Of a stretch of DNA of 64,000 bases, positions 40,091 through 50,708 are shown in pieces. The DNA comes from Octopus vulgaris (taxonomy: Eukaryota), in contig OX597815.1 of NCBI GenBank assembly GCA_951406725.2, forward strand, positions 93,062,001 to 93,126,000. Direction: 5' to 3'. Under the pieces are notes generated by a model. That model saw only the letters and a list, made by a program, of their open reading frames with translations, did not search any database and was not told where the DNA came from. A program made the position numbers and the translations under genes. Every line of letters starts with the position of its first letter. The first letter of the stretch is position 1.

Positions 40091-43000
40091 AATCAGACAC
40101 AAAAATAGAATACTTAAAAAAAAAGAAAGAATACATAATGAAACTACAAACAGTGAGCAAAAGACAAATGCTGAAACTAAAAACATAAAAGCCATATACA
40201 TTGAGAACATAAAATAAACAAAGATAGACCTAACATAGACAAAACAAACAAAAGAAACAACAAAACAAAATCGAACACCATAATACCTACACAAAATAGT
40301 GGTCAACAAAAGCTAGGTCTAAACTAATATGGAAAATTAGCACAGCCCCTAGGAGAATGAAATTATAGTTATATGCTGTAAATTTTGATATTTGTTGGTG
40401 TGGGTGGTTGGTGTGGGTGGTTCTGATATTCAGCTGGAACTTTCTGGAAACACAAACATATGGAGGGGAGGGGTATCAAAAGACTACTTTGAAAGAGGTT
40501 GTGAAACAAAGTTGATAAAAGAAAAAAAAAAAAATTAAGACATTCCAGCACCGGAAGTGACCAAATTGCTCGCCCTAAACTGGGCATGCTGTCACTGCTT
40601 GCCCTAATTCACTAGGTTCTCTCCTTTAATGTTTCATTTACTATTTCATTAGAAGAACACAGTTTTCTTCATCTGGAAATGCTTGCATATTATAAAAATT
40701 GAAGTATGCAGTCAAAATCAATATCATCATGATCATCATCATCATTACAGTTGTTCATCCCTAATATACGTCACATTAATTAGTCACTCAGAACGATATA
40801 TTTAACATCTAAAAGATATATAACTGCAATAACTAAAAGATCTATTGATAGTATAATGAAGACAGGGGTTCTACGACTTCCATTTCACCTAGTGAAATGA
40901 AACAAAGAAATGACCATTTCTTAAAAATATAAAACAGTATGTGTGTGTATATCTATATGTATCTCTCTGTATGTGTATGTGTGTATATATAAAATACACA
41001 CACTGGAAATAATTATTTTACGATAATATAATATATTATCTTCTTAAAGAAACTGGGTTGTAAACATGCTATTATTATTGCTGTTTGTTGTTGCAACATA
41101 CCAAAATATAAGAAGTATCTTTTATGAGAAAGATATTTATTTCCGCAATCAAAATATGTCAGGTCATCTAGCTTTGATTCAGGAATGTTAAAAAGATCTA
41201 GCTAAGAGGATAATGAGAAAATATATCTGTTGCTACTACTTTCTTACTGTATGCTATAATGCTGTGTGTGTGCATAGTAATTTATTTCTAAAGAATGAAG
41301 ATATCAAAAAGAAAGCAAGAAACAAAAGATGTCCTTCCCCACTCCCACTCCACATAGACCACTTTAGACAAATCACTAAATGTCTAACTGCTAAACAAAC
41401 AATTGTAGTAATACTAAATGTATACGCTGACATTTCTGTAGACACAGCATTGTACTAACACATTCCGAGGTTGCGAGAACAAAGCAATGCATATAATAAA
41501 GTGTGCATCAATAGATTCTTCTAGCAGATGCAACCTAAAATCTAGAAATAGAATCATTAGAAGACCTAATATCTCATGGCATCTTTGGTGTTTAGGTTTC
41601 AGAGGATAACACCATAAAAAATATTACAATTATTGCTATGTGTGAGTGTGTGTGTGCCTGAGAGAGAGAGGGAGAGAGAGAGTGGGGGGTGAGAGTATTA
41701 ACTATTATCAAGGGATTGTACAGGAAAATCAAAAGTTACACAGTGAAATAGTTTACAAACATCGAAGAGAAACATTTCATAAATAGTAGTATATATATAT
41801 ATATACACTTGTGTGTGTACATATATATATACACACACACACATATATATATATATGTATATATATATAAAATATATATGTATATATTCAAGTTTTTGAA
41901 CCCAGATGTTAACAAAAAAGGAAAAGGGGGTGGGGTGAAGACAAAAATAAAGGAGAAATTGCTAGATGTATTTTCACATGTATGCCGATTCAATTAAAGA
42001 TAAATTGTTAAAGACAGGATTAATTTCCAATATTGCGCTCATTGCTTAGAGAATTTTTATCTTCAGAACAGAGATCATATTTACAAAAAAAAGCCTCCCA
42101 AAATTTGGTGACCTTTCATAGAATAAGTATAAATAATGAAGTTTGTGTTGATGACATTTTTGTTTTCTTTTTGGCTTAAGTATTTTTCAAAAAAGATTTT
42201 CTTTGTCCAAAAGAAGAAAATAAAAAAAATAATAAAATAAAAAAAAACTGCATATAGAAGATTAAAAAAGAATGCTGTTACTATTAAAACATTCAGGAAT
42301 ACGAGTTAACAAAAGTCTTAGTTAAAATGAATGTTTGTTTTATTAGATGACTAGATTTCACTGAAATAATAGTAGCTGAAATGAATAGTTTAACATTAGA
42401 CAGATGTAAATGAAATAAATATACAAGTTTTGAGCTTTTGATTTTTAAAAGAGATGATCAAGAACAGAAAAAAAAATTACTAACTTTTCTTTTTAAAAAT
42501 AAATTTAAATAGATAAAAAAAAATTAGTTGCCAAAAAAGAAAAAAAAACAAATTAATGGAAAAATAAAATTTAAAGATGAAGAGAACCAGCTCTAATTGA
42601 GCAAATTTTCAAAGGAAATTCATCTGTTTTTGTTGTTGTTTTTTTTATATATAATTCAAACAAATAGAAGATTCCAGAGCAATGTTAATTTAGTTTCAAT
42701 GATATTTTGCAACTAAATTTTAATATTTTCTTGAAAATTTTCCAAGAAACAAGGATTTTTCTTATAATAATATTTTTCTGTAGTTTGATTTGAGTAAGAG
42801 GCAGGTAGAACTAAAGCCAATCCTGGATGTAGTAATATTGCCTTGGACACCACCATCATTGCTGTTGCCGTTGTCATCATCATCAGTAGTAGCAGTGAAA
42901 GTGTCAACATAAACAAAACAGAAGAGATAACAGAACAACTACCAAAAGTCATCAGTGTGACCAGCTCCAAGAGAACTTACTGGAGGGAAGTAGTTAAACT

Positions 43001-43392
43001 GCTGCAGTATTAACTCCATAACCCAACTGACTTTGGACAATGCACATATGTAGTTCGTGCCAGTTGAGACTAAAGTTAGTCATTCAGGATTAAAACTATG
43101 TGAAGTTGATGAAATCCTGATGGTTTTCTTCGCTTTGTGTATATGTAAATATGTATGCATGTGAGTGTGTGTGTGTGTGTATGTGTATGCATGCATGTGT
43201 TTTTTTAATCAAGTTTCTTTTTGTTATTTCTTTCTTTCTTTCGTTTTTAAAGGAAGAATAACAACTGTAGCCTGGTCTATCCAAAATTATAGGCAAAGTA
43301 GATAAATTGGCCTGTAATCCAAGAGATAGCTACAGTCTGGTGAGGTATGGCTACTGTATGAACTGTGTTACACATCCGGAAAGGCAAAGTAC

Positions 43393-43442
43393 TTACAGCT
43401 CTTTTGTCCGTTCTTTCTGATAGGCAATTGGTGATTGAAGAG
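43393..43442 (-). CDS. trio: Trio-like RhoGEF exon K (ALQSPIAYQKERTKEL*), Galpha-q-binding extension; stop codon overlaps a GTAAGT donor
   Basis: ttgttacag acceptor, phase 1 compatible with exon J. ALQSPIxYQ matches the p63RhoGEF/Trio PH extension. Sequence ends CT|GTAAGT, which reads CTG TAA if unspliced. Confidence 0.92.
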
Positions 43443-43659
43443 CTGTAACAACAATAATAACAAGAATTTAATGATTTTTCTCATTACAAACACAGCAGAA
43501 ACAAAACAAGACAAACACTGTTGAATTAGTAAGAACAATGTTAATGATATTGCCAGAAAGTACTTAATTTGAGCTGTATCCAGTTGATATGAATTTGAAA
43601 CAAGTTTACTTGAGACTTAAACCAAATGATCAGCAATATTTTTTGAAAATAACTGGAGC

Positions 43660-45570
43660 CAAGTAAGACCTACTGAGGGACCAGCTATTGATGTTGATAA
43701 CTATACAGTCAAAAGAATAATTAAGCATATGAAGGCAGGAAAAACAGCAGGACCATCAATGATAGCTACTGAGAGGCTAAAATACTCAGCTAAGTAAGAA
43801 ATGCACTTATCATTCACATAGCCAATGAGGTAATAGATGGAGGTATCATACTCAATGACTGGCATAGTAGCATCAATATCAACTGCTAGAAAGGCACTGG
43901 AGATGCTCTAGAAAGAAAGCGCAGAAGCATCAATCTGATGGACTACATTGCAACAGTAAGAGAAAGAGTTATAACATAATTAATTAGGAAGAGTATTAGC
44001 TTAACCAATGCCATCTTCAATACAAGGCCACCACAGGGATTTTTTTCAGTTAAGAAGAATAAGTCACAGTAGCTAGCATTTGTTGGTTAAGAGAAACCTC
44101 TTAACAGGATACCACATTTTATAGTCTAGTAGTTGCAAAAAAATAAAACCAAAAGAAAAACTAGCTTTAGATGAATGGCTTATGAGTACCATGCACGCTG
44201 CATATAGAGATGTTGTGAATAAGGTGACAGTCAGCATTAAGATCAGGGAGAAATTTAGTGTGTAGGTGTCATATAAAAAGCATCCAGCTGTAAAAACCAT
44301 ACCAAAACAGGCCTTTCTGGTGCTGGTGTCATGTAAAAAGCACTCAGTTCACTCTGTAAGATAGTTGGTGATAGGAAAAGTATCATGCTGTAAAAACCAT
44401 GCTAAAACAGACAGTAAAGCCTGGTGCAGTCTTCTGGTTTGCCAGCTCCTGTCAAACCATCCAACCCATGCCAGCATGGAAAATGGATGTTAAATGCTGA
44501 TGATGATGATGTACATATCTATCAAGGCTCGGTTTTCAACAGTTTCCTATTTATTATAATTCTTTAAACTATAAAGGAAGAATGTAAAATCAGTTGTTTG
44601 TAGGAAGTCCTGTCTACTGGTGAGCTAAAGATGATTCTGTCAATGAATTAAAGAAGAAATTCTAACTGTGGAAATCAAACCTATGACAAAGAGGTCTCTA
44701 AGTAATCATAGCAAAGACAGATGTTTTAGCTAGTAGAATAGAAGACAGAACTCTACTGCCAATAGAGTGTGGTTATTTTCAATAAGCAGAAAAGGTAGAT
44801 AGGTACTCTTTTACTAAATGTATATTATGGATGTGCAAGAGATGCAGTGAGATCACAGGTAGATTGGCAGAGGAGAAACAATTCATATGTAGCAGATGCA
44901 TAAGAGTAGTTAGTTGTAAGAACAACCATGAAATGAACTCCTTCAAATGCTTAGAACACACTCTGGAAGTTGTTGATTGTTTTTGTTACCTAGGTGACCA
45001 AATTAGCAGTGGAGAGGGTGTTCCAAAACATAGTAGCCAAAGTAAGAATAGAGTAGAAAAAGTACAAAGAATTATTGCTTCAGCTGGCAACAAAGGGATT
45101 TGCTTAGCAACAGGTAAACTTGTATGATACTCATGATTGATGTGCAATGTCAAATGAGAGTGAAATGTGTACTGAATGCAGAGGATGTGCAAATGCTGGA
45201 AAGAAATGAAGCAAGCATGCTTCACTGGATGTATAAATATTAGTGTGCAAAAACAACAGAGTACAAATGAACTAAGAGAAACTTTGGGCATGAGAGGAAT
45301 AAAATGTCATGTGCAAGAAAGGAAAATGTGCAGGTGCAGGCATGTGATGTATATGGAAGGTAACAGTTGGGTAAAGAAATGCCAAACAATTTAAATGGAA
45401 GAATCTCATGGAAGAGGAAGGATGAGAAAGACAAAGGGAAGTGTAGTGAAAGGTGAACCTCAAAAATGAGATGATAAAGGATCACAACAAATTATGCAAA
45501 ACTGTGTTATAGAAGACCCATCTAACCCTTGCAAGTGAAGAAAAGTAGAAGTGATGATCATGATGATAGA
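43660..45570 (+). mobile_element. Decayed RTE-clade LINE (RT and 3' end), interrupted by a family D SINE
   Basis: Remnant peptides MKAGKTAGPS, NDWHSSI.INC*KGTGDALER and FCYLGDQISSG. Tail CCCTTGCAAG...(TGA)n. Many stops and frameshifts. Confidence 0.8.
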
Positions 45571-47033
45571 TACACACAAAAAAAGCTGATCAAAGATTAT
45601 ACATGATATAATCAAGCTAATATGGACAGAAAAAGGTGACCAGTTTATTTAAGTAATTATCATAGCCTCATGGTAACAATAAAAAATTATACATAGATCT
45701 AGTAGGATATCATTATATTTAAATGCCACTTTAACATTTATGACAAAAACTAAACAAAATCCCATAAAAGAAATTATTTGCAGATTTATTTTAAAATAAT
45801 TTTGGCATTATAATTTCCAGAGAAAGAACTTATGTGTGCAACAACAGGTGCATTGGGATTTCAACCCAGCTGGACCTGATGAGTGCCTTGTGCTGTTAGT
45901 CCAAGCTTTTTTCTAGAGGCTAACTATCCCTAGATTGAAGTCATGTTTTCTCTTTCACTGGGAATTAGAACTCCAAAATTGTTTTAGAGCATGTCTAGAA
46001 ACATATTCTTAAACAGAGACAATATATAACTCATACAATAGTTACATCGGCCTAAAAATAATAAGCAAAAATAAATTGAAGGACACCAACCAACACAAGA
46101 CAAACACTACTCTCTACTGATTTATGGAAATACTAGAGATTAGTTGAAAATAAAACTATGACACAATTACATCATCTGTGTCAATGAACAAAAGTGAACA
46201 AAACTACACAAATAAGAGTGAACAATGTTAAGTAAACAAGTGAACAATATCAAGAAAACAGTAGTTGTCATGTCATTCTTAAACATAAAGTAAGTCTATT
46301 GTTTTTCCCAATAGCAATTTTCAGAAAGACTTCAAATTTCTTACATTGACACAAGGCCTTACAGTTATAAGGGATGAAATATTCATGCCTTTCCCAATAT
46401 TATAATTAATATATTGAAGGGAAATGGCAACAACTAAGAATCAAATTTGCTGAGGACTCTCAGCAAAGTTCTTTTAAAATTTTTTTCATAGAATAAGACA
46501 TTTTAAAGGTAGGAAAATAAAAAGAAAATTACAAAAAGAGACTTGCTCAAATGAGCCAAATAAAATGAACTTCCTCAGTAAAATACAGCAATAGTATGAA
46601 GTCAAAAAGAAAAAAAAAAAAAAGCAAGGCACATCTCTTTGGGGTTTCAAAATCTCTATTTTGTTCAGTACTTAGCAACTTTAATCTATTTAGAACATAA
46701 AAAAAAACAGAACACAATAAAAAAATCCAACATAAGGGAAAACTCCTGGAAATTCCATTCTCTAATAGAGGTACAGAAACATACAATACGTGTGCAAAAT
46801 AAGACAATTATTGCAACCTTTGTAACACTTGACTTCATCATACAAGACTGGACACAAATATTTATGACCTCTAACTAGAGTCAAACAATACAATTTGGTT
46901 TCAAATAAAATTGTGCAATATCCACAAAATAAAAGGTGCTTGTTCTGATATCAAAATAGGGAAGGTGTGTGACAAATGTTCACATGTGGACATTGGGCAG
47001 TGCTTTTATTACCCAGATTAGTTATTTGAACGG

Positions 47034-47089
47034 TCAGCCGGATGGTGTGAGTTTGATGTTGGCACCAGAGTGAGAGACCATGACTTGTT
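47034..47089 (-). CDS. Candidate alternative last exon after exon J (EQVMVSHSGANIKLTPSG*)
   Basis: Strong acceptor ctctctttcttcag, open in phase 1 to TGA, GC-richer than flanks, AATAAA at 47005-47010 downstream. Confidence 0.5.
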
Positions 47090-48109
47090 CTGAAGAAAGA
47101 GAGTCTATAAAAAATAAACTGACCCAGCTATGTACTTCAATAATTTTGATTTTATGAAGGATATAAAAATAATAATAATAAAAAATATGGCTTATGTACA
47201 CATAAGAGATGAATATCACCAATTGCAGTCCAAATAATCATCAGAAAATATTTGATAATGCCAACCATATTTCAATGAACTTGGAAGAAGCACACACACG
47301 CACACACACACACACACATACACATGCACAATGTTTGCTATAATGTATATGATGTAGGAAATTAAAATAATTTGAATAATTCAAAATTTGAATATTTTAT
47401 AAACAATAAGAGAGCAGTCTTCAGAGTTAATGGCTTTTTGCTGCTAAAAAGATTTTTTTCAATGAATAGATCCATCGAATCTTACTAAAGATAAATTATT
47501 GAAACATTGAACACGAAATATAGAAAAATGAGATATGAGGTTCTTTCAGTAAAATTTTGATATTTATAGTACTAATAATAGTTTCAAATTCTAGCACAAG
47601 GCCAGCAATTTCGGGGTAGGAGCTAAGTCAATTACAACAACCCCAGTTGTTGTAATACTTATTTTACTGATCCCCCCAACTTCACCCCAATAGGATGAAA
47701 GGCAAAGTTGACCTGGCTAAATTTGAACTCTGTGTGTAGAGACAAACAAAATGCCATGAAGTATTTTGCCTTGTGTGCTAATGATTCTGTTAGCTCACTG
47801 CCTTTATAGTACTAATATTAGTATATGTTACTTCAATATGGAACACATCCAAATATAGAATTTACTAACTTAATCTTGAATGTTAATTAATTTCTTTACA
47901 ACATGTAAAGAAATTAGGCAACAGAATAAAAAATATATATAACAAAAAGCACAATGTGGATGATACATATACTCTCCTGTGTTCATTTATCTATCAGCAT
48001 AAATTTGATATGCTTACAGGAAGTAACCAATATCTATGGGAAGTTAGATTATTGTTGGGGATAAATACAAGTCTGAAAGTTGTAAATCAGCAAACTGTAT
48101 GATACATAC

Positions 48110-48287
48110 CTCGTAGGAAATCGCCCTGCATATCTAATATAGAACGGATTTGAGCAATCCACTCATCTCTGATTTCTTCTGTAGGTGCTTGAATAATATA
48201 TTTCATATTACTATCAGGTGTTCTATCGATAAGAATAAATTTTAAATCATCTCCTTCTGCATTTTCATTCATAGACATTTTATTAAC
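48110..48287 (-). CDS. trio: Trio-like RhoGEF exon J, PH2 C-terminal half (VNKMSMNEN...EWIAQIRSILDMQGDFLR)
   Basis: tttccag acceptor, GTATGT donor, 178 nt (phase 0 to 1). PH terminal helix with conserved Trp. Confidence 0.95.
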
Positions 48288-50546
48288 CTGGAAATACATA
48301 AAATAATTTGGATAAATTATTACTGTAAATAACATAACAATCATCTCTAACATAAGCACAAGGTCAGAAATGTGAGAGGAGGGGTTAGTGTTTAAAGTGA
48401 CCTCAGTACTTGACTGATACTTTATTTTAGTGATTCCTGAAGGATGAAAAACAAAATCGAAGGTACACGGTTATGGATTTCAAGGACGGCTATGGTTGAT
48501 TATATCAAGCTTAATACTTGACTGATAAATATTTTAATGACCCTGAAAGTTAAAAGGCAAAACTGACTTTGGTATGGTTTGAATTCAGAATGTAAATACA
48601 TCAAACTAAATACTGCTCTGTTGATTCTGATAACCTACCCACTGTAAATAGGAATTTCTTTATGATTGAGCTAAAAGTAACAAAATAAGGGGACAGTACA
48701 GGGATGGATTATAAAATTAGTTGGGTTTATACTGGGACTATATGAAATGAAGTGGTGGTATACACAGTATACAAAATATAGCAATGTCCCATTAGGAAGA
48801 CAGCCACTTGAGAATCAATCAAAGACTTCCACAAATCCAAGATTACTTTGACTACAAAAGGAAAATGCTCTTTCTTGTTGGCCTGTGCTTGCCGTTCTCA
48901 CCTATCTTTCAAGAAATTTACTACAGGGTAGCACTTTCCACTCAAAGTGCAATTTAAAAACATCAATTAGCTGAAGAGGAAAGCATTTGTTTTCACAATT
49001 TACTGTAATGTCCACCAAACAAAGGAAAACTTGCTGACCAAATGAAGACTAAATGTTGGTTGATAGCCAGCTCTGCCCAACAACATGACAACAGCTGTTT
49101 GACATAAATGAATGTAATGTCCCAAACAACTTGTTTTGTTTGGTGGCAAAAGGACAGTGGTTTGAGAGATATTGCTGCACACTAGCTTCATAGTGTAAAA
49201 TAGATGAGATACATTTCCCTCTGGCTAAAGTGTTAAACTATCACAGCTAACCTGATTGCTATCCCTACCAACAGTTAAGGTGGACTGAAGGAAGTGTTCT
49301 GTTTAGAAACAGTGGAGCACCAGTAGGTAGTTCAATATTTTATCTGCCCAACCATTGCTATCAATAATGATTCATGGGAAATTATTGTATTATTACTTTA
49401 GCCAGTCTGAGTGTGCATGTGCGTGCAAGTGTTAGTAAACAAAAATCATCACTAACATATAGATGCTTTCATGTGGCAAACTGGTCACCACAATTTCATA
49501 ACCATAGAAATATTCAAAGAAATGCAACCACAGTATTACAGAAAATAATACAGTCATGTGTACAAAAAATGAGTGACTAATTGTCTTCAGTAAAACCACC
49601 ACATACATTACACTGAGAGGAAACTAATGTACTTCAGTCATACTGATAGGTATGTGACACAGCAAATAGAAAGCCAGGAATGACTAATCTACAATAATAC
49701 AACCACACGTGTAACATAGTAATAGAAAATAAAGAGTAACTAATCAACTCTAAGAGTATAACTATTGAATGAGTGTATAATCAGTTGGATGGATGGGTGC
49801 ATAATTATCAAATGGATATATAACTATTATAGATACTAAGTTTTCTGCAAAAAGAGTTAAATGTGCTGTCTCTGTTAGCTCATTTACCCAGTTTGTTAGT
49901 CATACATAGTGTTTATTAATTTCTCTATTTGTTAATTACACCAGATGTGCACCAAACAAATGGTGCCATGTTCCCTACTTTAAAATGTCACACTTCAAGT
50001 ACCATCTCAGTTAATGTCAGATGAAAAGAGCAGCTTTGTAAATTTTACATGTTGTTGGTGCTTTGTGTGTGTGTCTAAGAGTGAGAGAAGGGGGGAAGGA
50101 GGGAGACAGAGAGAGGGGGAAGGAGCAGTAAGGAGAGCGAAAGAAACAGTTGGAAAAGAGAGAGAGCAGAGACTAGTTATATGATTAGGAACTAAGGTCT
50201 TAATCACCACAATGATACACAGATATAGTTCTGTCATGTAAACATTAGCTATGATAAAGAGTGGCTGTTACTTCTAGTTAAATATCTGGAATATAGTCAT
50301 TTCTTGATCTGCTAGAAGTAGCAGTTAAATCTCCCTTAAATTGTATCCTACTGCCTTAAAAAAAGAGACACATTGGTTAATGTAGTTCCAGATAAACTGT
50401 CAGATTAATGGATGGGATGGTCATGGTTGGAATACCTTTAGTCATAGATCTGTTTGATCAATGCCGAACTTGGACTTCAACAAATGTTAAAAAAAGTAAA
50501 AGAAAGGGTGACAACACAGGTAGAATAATAACTGATATAACCTTAC

Positions 50547-50708
50547 CGTTACACTGTTTTTATAAATATAATTGGCATCAGAAAAACTGCCCCTTTTCTT
50601 GTCCTCAATCACTTCACTAAAAATTATGATCTGTTCAAAAAGAAACACTCGTCTTTCTCTAAATTTGGAGTGACTACCTTCTGTGACTTCACCAACCAGC
50701 AGGGTTTC
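50547..50708 (-). CDS. trio: Trio-like RhoGEF exon I, PH2 (ETLLVGEVTEGSHSKFRERRVFLFEQIIIFSEVIEDKKRGSFSDANYIYKNSVT)
   Basis: ttcacag acceptor, GTAAGG donor, 162 nt. ERRVFLFEQxxIFSE and YIYKNS motifs. Confidence 0.96.

What the first reader, a model, noticed from the sequence alone, without database searches (positions are those of the whole stretch)
43393..48287. Possible splice switch that adds or removes the Galpha-q-binding motif of Trio GEF2
Seen: the exon J/K junction splits the motif DFLR|ALQSPIAYQK. Inside that intron, 47034-47089 has a strong acceptor, is open in the correct phase (DFLR-EQVMVSHSGANIKLTPSG*) and has AATAAA just after the stop. Known: the FLxALxSPIxYQ extension of the PH domain is the Galpha-q docking site in p63RhoGEF, Trio GEF2 and UNC-73. 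Inference: alternative last-exon choice would give a RhoA GEF with intact DH-PH but uncoupled from Gq.
Basis: partly seen in the sequence, partly recalled or inferred. Interest (0 to 1): 0.72.

Follow-up and report, generated by a model that had tools for sequence, protein, structure and literature searches.

The report
Stop-codon cassette exon in octopus Trio
In the octopus gene for Trio, a protein that relays G-protein signals to the cytoskeleton, a small optional exon with a stop codon is spliced in in some samples of two species, and it would swap the tail that Gq docks on for a short unrelated one, likely giving a Trio that no longer answers to Gq.

Summary
Assembled sequencing contigs join exon J (48110) to 47089 in 1 of 4 runs, and join 47013 onward to exon K (43442) in 3 of 4 runs, from two species labels. 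It is a 77-nt cassette exon with an in-frame TGA. The AATAAA is part of its splice donor (TGG|GTAATAAA). It was not seen in three raw RNA runs that show J-K skipping. Inclusion would replace ALQSPIAYQKERTKEL with EQVMVSHSGANIKLTPSG*, losing the equivalent of p63RhoGEF L475, which Gq binding needs. The stop lies 21 nt before the X/K junction. It should escape decay when K is the last exon (a form expressed here), and is a likely decay trigger in long kinase-bearing transcripts. Limits: no protein evidence; peptide in 0 of 475 retrieved proteins; inclusion level and tissue unknown; no cephalopod outside Octopus tested. The intron splitting the motif is old and widespread, so the split alone says nothing. 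Verdict: a new, unannotated splice variant of a known kind; Gq uncoupling is inferred.

The parts
50547..50708 (-). Exon I, first half of the GEF2 PH domain
   Evidence: tblastn to cephalopod Trio 80-84% identity; I-J joint in 4 of 4 runs
48110..48287 (-). Exon J, second half of PH2, ends ...QGDFLR plus the first base of the split codon (phase 1)
   Evidence: 59/59 residues identical to O. sinensis and O. bimaculoides 'kalirin'; joints
47013..47089 (-). Exon X: 77-nt cassette exon encoding (E)QVMVSHSGANIKLTPSG then TGA (47036-47034), plus 21 nt after the stop
   Evidence: J-X junction contig in X3 (depth 37.4); X-K junction contigs in X1, X3, X7 (checked); single copy in the genome
47005..47015 (-).
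46638..47012 (-). Intron stretch just downstream of X with low divergence between species labels A and B; possible splicing-control element
   Evidence: at most 3 substitutions in 405 nt against 40 in the next 1038 nt; border chosen after seeing the data
43397..43442 (-). Exon K (46 nt as internal exon): (A)LQSPIAYQKERTKEL, the main part of the Gq-docking extension; becomes 3' UTR when X is included
   Evidence: J-K joint in 4 of 4 runs
42330..43396 (-). Terminal extension of exon K: unused donor gives the TKEL* stop (TAA 43395-43393) and a ~1 kb 3' UTR, candidate AATAAA at 42344
   Evidence: X1 contig 42431-43148 at depth 62; raw-read cover in X21-23 falls off below ~42400; signal; the 3' end itself was not mapped

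Best explanation
Exon X is a 77-nt stop-containing cassette exon spliced between exons J and K of octopus Trio in some samples; it likely yields, in transcripts that end at exon K, a stable Trio whose RhoA-GEF unit is predicted to stay autoinhibited and to lose Gq activation, and it would likely mark long kinase-bearing transcripts for decay. Shown: both junctions exist; skipping exists; K-terminal transcripts are expressed; the frame ends in EQVMVSHSGANIKLTPSG*. Inferred: mRNA stability by the 50-55 nt junction rule (recalled; stop 21 nt before X/K, 67 nt before K/L). Also inferred: translation, and loss of Gq binding because the L475, P478 and I479 equivalents become Q, V and S while F471/L472 remain. 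The product would be a Gq-off form with low basal RhoA activity, not an activated one like PH-less Tgat.
For: J-X contig in X3, X-K contigs in X1, X3, X7 from 3 studies and 2 species labels. Fork depths add up (37.4 in; 23.5 + 9.8 out) and exceed the intronic contigs of 5-10 in the same run. Sample variation: X1 J-K 103.2 against X-K 3.4; X21-23 have 10, 13 and 8 J-K reads and zero depth over 46764-47160. Stop, post-stop bases and X/K junction are identical in species B (record 13, 0 differences in 30 nt), and the downstream intron is less diverged than its flank (p 0.0007-0.014 for four of five borders). K-terminal UTR is expressed. p63RhoGEF L475A abolishes Gq interaction (PMC3722567 passages), and its primer places L475 at the L of ALQSP; 2RGN aligns to the motif. 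The autoinhibited human GEF2 crystal chain 6D8Z ends 2 residues after ILENQ, before the extension, so DH-PH folds and is autoinhibited without it.
Against: No peptide or protein evidence; 0 of 475 retrieved proteins carry the tail. All 15 visible of 27 members of the octopod cluster are canonical. The runs with X are contigs whose RNA status is a guess by the tool (they do carry exon-exon joints). Contigs do not link X to the K-terminal UTR in one molecule and give no inclusion ratio. The donor is weak (+5 T). One of five borders gave no significant conservation (p 0.13). NMD rules in molluscs were not established (listing only).
Confidence: 0.5

Rival explanations
1. X is a regulated poison exon: its job is to lower Trio mRNA (all forms, or the long kinase form) through nonsense-mediated decay, and the 18-residue tail is incidental.
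For: 77 nt is not a multiple of 3; in-frame stop; stop 67 nt upstream of the K/L junction with many more junctions downstream. The conserved part is intron rather than shown coding sequence. The tail matches no protein.
Against: X-K contigs are at depth 23-34, several times the intron background. When K is terminal the stop is 21 nt from the last junction and the 3' UTR is only about 70 nt longer than normal (1120 against 1049 nt), so neither common NMD model (recalled) predicts decay.
Confidence: 0.25
2. X is a neutral cryptic exon of the Octopus lineage, included at a low rate in some tissues with no selected function.
For: Acceptor-plus-frame patterns like it are common by chance. Weak donor. 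Absent from visible RefSeq isoforms. No counterpart in any other animal among 475 proteins. Total Trio level in X3 and X7 is unknown, so inclusion could be a few percent.
Against: Same exon end used in two species labels that differ by about 3.9% in flanking intron; reduced divergence next to the donor; strong differences between samples; single-copy sequence, so no detectable repeat origin.
Confidence: 0.15
3. One reading: X is mainly an alternative last exon polyadenylated at the AATAAA at 47010 or further downstream.
For: A minority of contigs run through the donor (X3 9.8, X7 9.2). The X7 run-on contig is long enough to reach about 44520, near an AATAAA at 44555. Contigs cannot show RNA ends, so cleavage near 46990 is not excluded.
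Against: The larger onward path is splicing to K in both runs. Run-on contigs pass 47010 without ending. X1 shows patchy intron cover up to exon K at depth 2-10, as for unspliced precursor. The X7 contig's end also coincides with a high-copy repeat.
Confidence: 0.1

Closest known systems
Trio/Kalirin/UNC-73 dual RhoGEF family, GEF2 (TrioC) unit
   Same: DH2-PH2 exons, the FLxALQSPIxYQ extension, and downstream SH3-Ig-FN3-kinase exons on the same contig
   Different: An isoform that keeps all of PH2 but drops the extension was not found in the papers searched or in 475 retrieved proteins
3'-end isoforms of Trio and Kalirin (Trio A/B/D, Trio8/Solo, Kalirin-7/-8/-9)
   Same: Alternative 3' processing that truncates the protein (PMC3547891, PMC11630257 passages). 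The TKEL* form here resembles Kalirin-9/Trio9 in ending after GEF2
   Different: As described in those passages they cut at whole-domain borders; X cuts inside the Gq-docking element and does so with a stop-containing cassette
Tgat (TRIO splice variant in adult T-cell leukaemia)
   Same: Splice-made alternative C-terminus on GEF2
   Different: Tgat has only the DH domain (PMC3547891 passage) and is transforming; the X form keeps the inhibitory PH2 and is predicted to be off rather than on
p63RhoGEF versus GEFT (ARHGEF25 splice variants)
   Same: Splice forms that differ in how well they couple to Gq (PMC3722567 passages)
   Different: GEFT keeps the full Gq surface and differs in membrane targeting at the N-terminus; here the docking site itself is removed
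Poison (PTC) cassette exons coupled to NMD (recalled class)
   Same: Frame-shifting, stop-containing optional exon with a conserved flanking intron
   Different: It sits 21 nt before what is often the last junction, so it may escape decay and code a short tail

Membership tests
Trio/Kalirin family | RhoA-type DH-PH (GEF2) unit homologous to TrioC/p63RhoGEF | tested here: met
   exon-by-exon tblastn to cephalopod Trio; gastropod homologue P0003 matches 6D8Z at E 4e-124 and 2RGN at 5e-116
Trio/Kalirin family | C-terminal SH3, Ig, FN3 and kinase exons in the same gene | tested here: met
   G000:C2:93050514 down to 93006567, same strand, beyond the window start; K-L phase fits
Trio/Kalirin family | N-terminal Sec14, spectrin repeats and GEF1 | not tested
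   not searched in G000; present in P0132, whose exon J is identical
Gq-activated RhoGEF (canonical J-K form) | FLxALxSPIxYQ extension after PH2 | tested here: met
Gq-activated RhoGEF (J-X form) | FLxALxSPIxYQ extension after PH2 | tested here: not met
   reads FLREQVMVSHSG
Gq-activated RhoGEF (either form) | Measured Gq binding and stimulation of RhoA exchange | not testable with these tools
   needs pull-down and exchange assay
Cassette exon | Both inclusion junctions and the skipping junction exist | tested here: met
Alternative last exon | Transcript ends downstream of the exon without a further splice | tested here: inconclusive
   main path splices to K; minor run-on of unknown end; contigs show no ends
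Poison exon | Stop more than 50-55 nt upstream of the last junction | tested here: inconclusive
   67 nt to K/L in long forms (met), 21 nt when K is terminal (not met); which partner X uses is unknown
Poison exon | Transcript rises when NMD is blocked | not testable with these tools
   no such data could be selected

The most novel reading that the evidence does not exclude
Octopuses have evolved a cell-type-specific splice switch that unplugs Trio from Gq. One 77-nt exon makes a stable Gq-deaf Trio from short transcripts and destroys the long kinase-bearing transcripts, so that Gq signalling in those cells goes to PLC-beta rather than Rho.
Probability: 0.3. Interest if true: 0.72.

Novelty: new variant of a known kind. 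Interest (0 to 1): 0.52.

Why it matters
Gq signals through two effector arms, PLC-beta and Trio/p63RhoGEF-RhoA, which appear to compete for Gq (PMC3722567 passages). Known isoforms change that balance by localisation or by deleting whole domains. A natural isoform that removes only the docking element would be a clean off-switch for one arm, set by splicing. It would also remove Gq-driven membrane recruitment, which is proposed to drive Rac1 activation by GEF1 (PMC9372627 passage). The exon is missing from the gene models seen, and it gives a directly testable pair of proteins. If it is only a poison or cryptic exon, it is an annotation fix.

Tried and rejected
Poly(A) at the AATAAA at 47010 as the main fate: rejected, it lies in the donor and the main path splices to K. 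The motif-splitting intron as evidence of a switch: rejected, the intron position is widespread. Repeat origin of X: one match in the genome (that search skips common words). A-to-I read-through of the TGA: no T>C at 47034 in the contigs laid, and the frame stops again 4 codons later. Upstream in-frame acceptor at 47104: the junction contig uses 47089. The run search listed no holder on record as RNA (14 holders guessed as RNA), which is no evidence either way. X8 (species label C) covered only 46425-46905, so it is uninformative. In one search only 15 of 90 joints were shown, so a J-X joint in X1 could be hidden there; re-laid X1 and found none. My first tally script had a faulty pattern and was redone; only its Fisher test is used. 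No squid or cuttlefish genome or RNA could be searched for X. Williams 2007, Rojas 2007, Steven 2005 and Bandekar 2019 are not held, so the C-termini of UNC-73 D1/D2/E and the published deletion data were not checked. No structure or complex prediction was run: the J-X protein is not available as a stored sequence, and the canonical pair is a solved structure. Earlier-findings look-ups gave only two sea-urchin notes on 5' start exons, which do not bear on this.

Full report
Gene. The window's minus strand holds the GEF2 half of an Octopus Trio/Kalirin gene. tblastn of cephalopod and gastropod homologues maps the DH2-PH2 exons from about 61900 down to 43397. Exon J is 59/59 identical to O. sinensis and O. 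bimaculoides 'kalirin'. The next exon (STPDFG...) and the SH3, Ig, FN3 and kinase exons lie beyond the window start, at G000:C2:93050514 down to 93006567; intron K-L is about 55 kb.

Observation. Exon J ends DFLR+G, exon K begins at 43442, and 47089 has a good acceptor that reads EQVMVSHSGANIKLTPSG* in frame with J, with AATAAA at 47010. On sequence alone this is weak. The same combination appeared in 11-23% of 300 shuffled introns and about 0.4 times per intron length elsewhere in the window. The split of the Gq motif is not special either: of 84 new representatives found with exon J, 62 read Gly directly after FLx, as expected for genomic read-through into a phase-1 intron; 13 were canonical and 9 unclassified. 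Ten bivalve fragments do the same.

Expression. A run search with 46500-47100 listed 24 runs, 20 of them holding the stretch, under six organism labels; none of the holders is on record as RNA. I laid 7 distinct runs in two calls. (raw RNA reads X21-23, about 6% of each run, and contig run X1) shows the J-K joint in 4 of 4 (10, 13 and 8 reads; depth 103.2) and zero raw-read depth over 46764-47160. It also shows cover running on from K for about 1 kb (X1 contig 42431-43148, depth 62); only 15 of 90 joints were displayed. (contigs X1, X3, X7, X8 on 45600-47280) is decisive. X3 has a 107-nt contig at depth 37.4 whose loose end is the 3' end of exon J, joined exactly at 47089. X1 (3.4), X3 (23.5) and X7 (33.6, a second species label) have contigs whose loose end before 47013 is the 5' end of exon K. 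Both loose ends match the window letter for letter. X8 does not reach the exon. Smaller run-on contigs (9.8 in X3, 9.2 in X7) cross the donor and continue far past the AATAAA. X1 has patchy intron cover up to K, which fits unspliced precursor, though a minor last-exon use is not excluded. The inclusion ratio in X3 and X7 and the tissues are unknown.

Conservation. In species label B, 47013-47042 (stop, post-stop bases, junction) has no difference. There are at most 3 substitutions in 46638-47042 against 40 in 45600-46637 (Fisher p 0.0009 with a border chosen after the fact). With five other borders p was 0.014, 0.0007, 0.004, 0.012 and 0.13. All 15 visible of 27 members of the octopod cluster are canonical long forms. 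No non-Octopus cephalopod DNA could be searched.

Mechanism. With X included the frame ends after 18 new residues and K becomes UTR. The stop is 21 nt before the X/K junction and 67 nt before K/L. K is often terminal: its unused donor gives TKEL*, its UTR is expressed, and 62 of the first 341 retrieved proteins end shortly after the motif. By the junction rule for NMD (recalled; not established for molluscs, listing only), J-X-K-terminal mRNA escapes decay and J-X-K-L mRNA does not. For the protein, the extension is required for Gq interaction and L475A abolishes it (PMC3722567 passages; PMC3547891 passage). The primer in that paper reads D-F-L-N-A-[475]-Q-S-P-I-E, so L475 is encoded in exon K; in X the equivalents of A474, L475, P478 and I479 become E, Q, V and S. 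PH2 inhibits DH2 (22-fold in PMC12309612, with a construct whose exact end I did not see). The autoinhibited crystal chain 6D8Z stops two residues after ILENQ, before the extension. The X form is therefore predicted to fold, stay at basal RhoA activity and ignore Gq, which stimulates TrioC about 2.5-fold in vitro (PMC9372627 passages). Junctions and frame are shown; stability, translation and loss of Gq coupling are inferred.

Known context. Trio and Kalirin have many 3' isoforms, Tgat keeps only DH2, and GEFT differs from p63RhoGEF at the N-terminus (passages). Eight searches listed no paper on a natural isoform that keeps PH2 but lacks the extension, nor on octopus Trio splicing; I read listings for most and passages of seven papers, no supplements. 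The four primary papers (Williams 2007, Rojas 2007, Steven 2005, Bandekar 2019) were not held, so UNC-73 isoform C-termini remain unchecked and could supply a precedent.

Verdict. A real, unannotated, sample-variable cassette exon shared by two species labels. Best reading: a Gq-uncoupling tail switch with a side effect on long transcripts (0.5). Rivals: poison exon (0.25), neutral cryptic exon (0.15), alternative last exon (0.1). New variant of a known kind; interest 0.52.

Noticed in passing
window 43396-42330 (-): Exon K doubles as a last exon: ignoring its donor GTAAGT gives TKEL* and a ~1 kb UTR. Short forms ending just after the Gq motif are common across protostomes (62 of 341 proteins), a Trio9/Kalirin-9-like form not among the 15 octopod isoforms seen.
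   Followed up: partly
proteins P0147, P0280, P0282, P0286, P0154, P0150: Oyster, pearl-oyster and scallop Trio have a degenerate Gq-docking motif (FFTIAITNPTKM, FIDSLTKPQQH, IFGDRLANPTAY) while mussel and clam keep ALQSPI; these bivalves may have altered Gq coupling.
   Followed up: no
window 47013-47280, run X1: A contig at depth 3.4 has X spliced to K while the J-X intron is still present, suggesting the downstream intron can be removed first.
   Followed up: no
window 44344-44511, 47573-47810, 48400-48580: High-copy transcribed repeat fragments inside the introns draw thousands of unrelated reads; not identified.
   Followed up: no
window 47104: A second AG 15 nt upstream of the used acceptor is in the same frame and would add DSLSS; not seen used.
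   Followed up: partly
window 43396 to G000:C2:93050514: The K-L intron is about 55 kb and no coding exon was found by tblastn in window 1-43390; this long intron may favour ending at K.
   Followed up: partly
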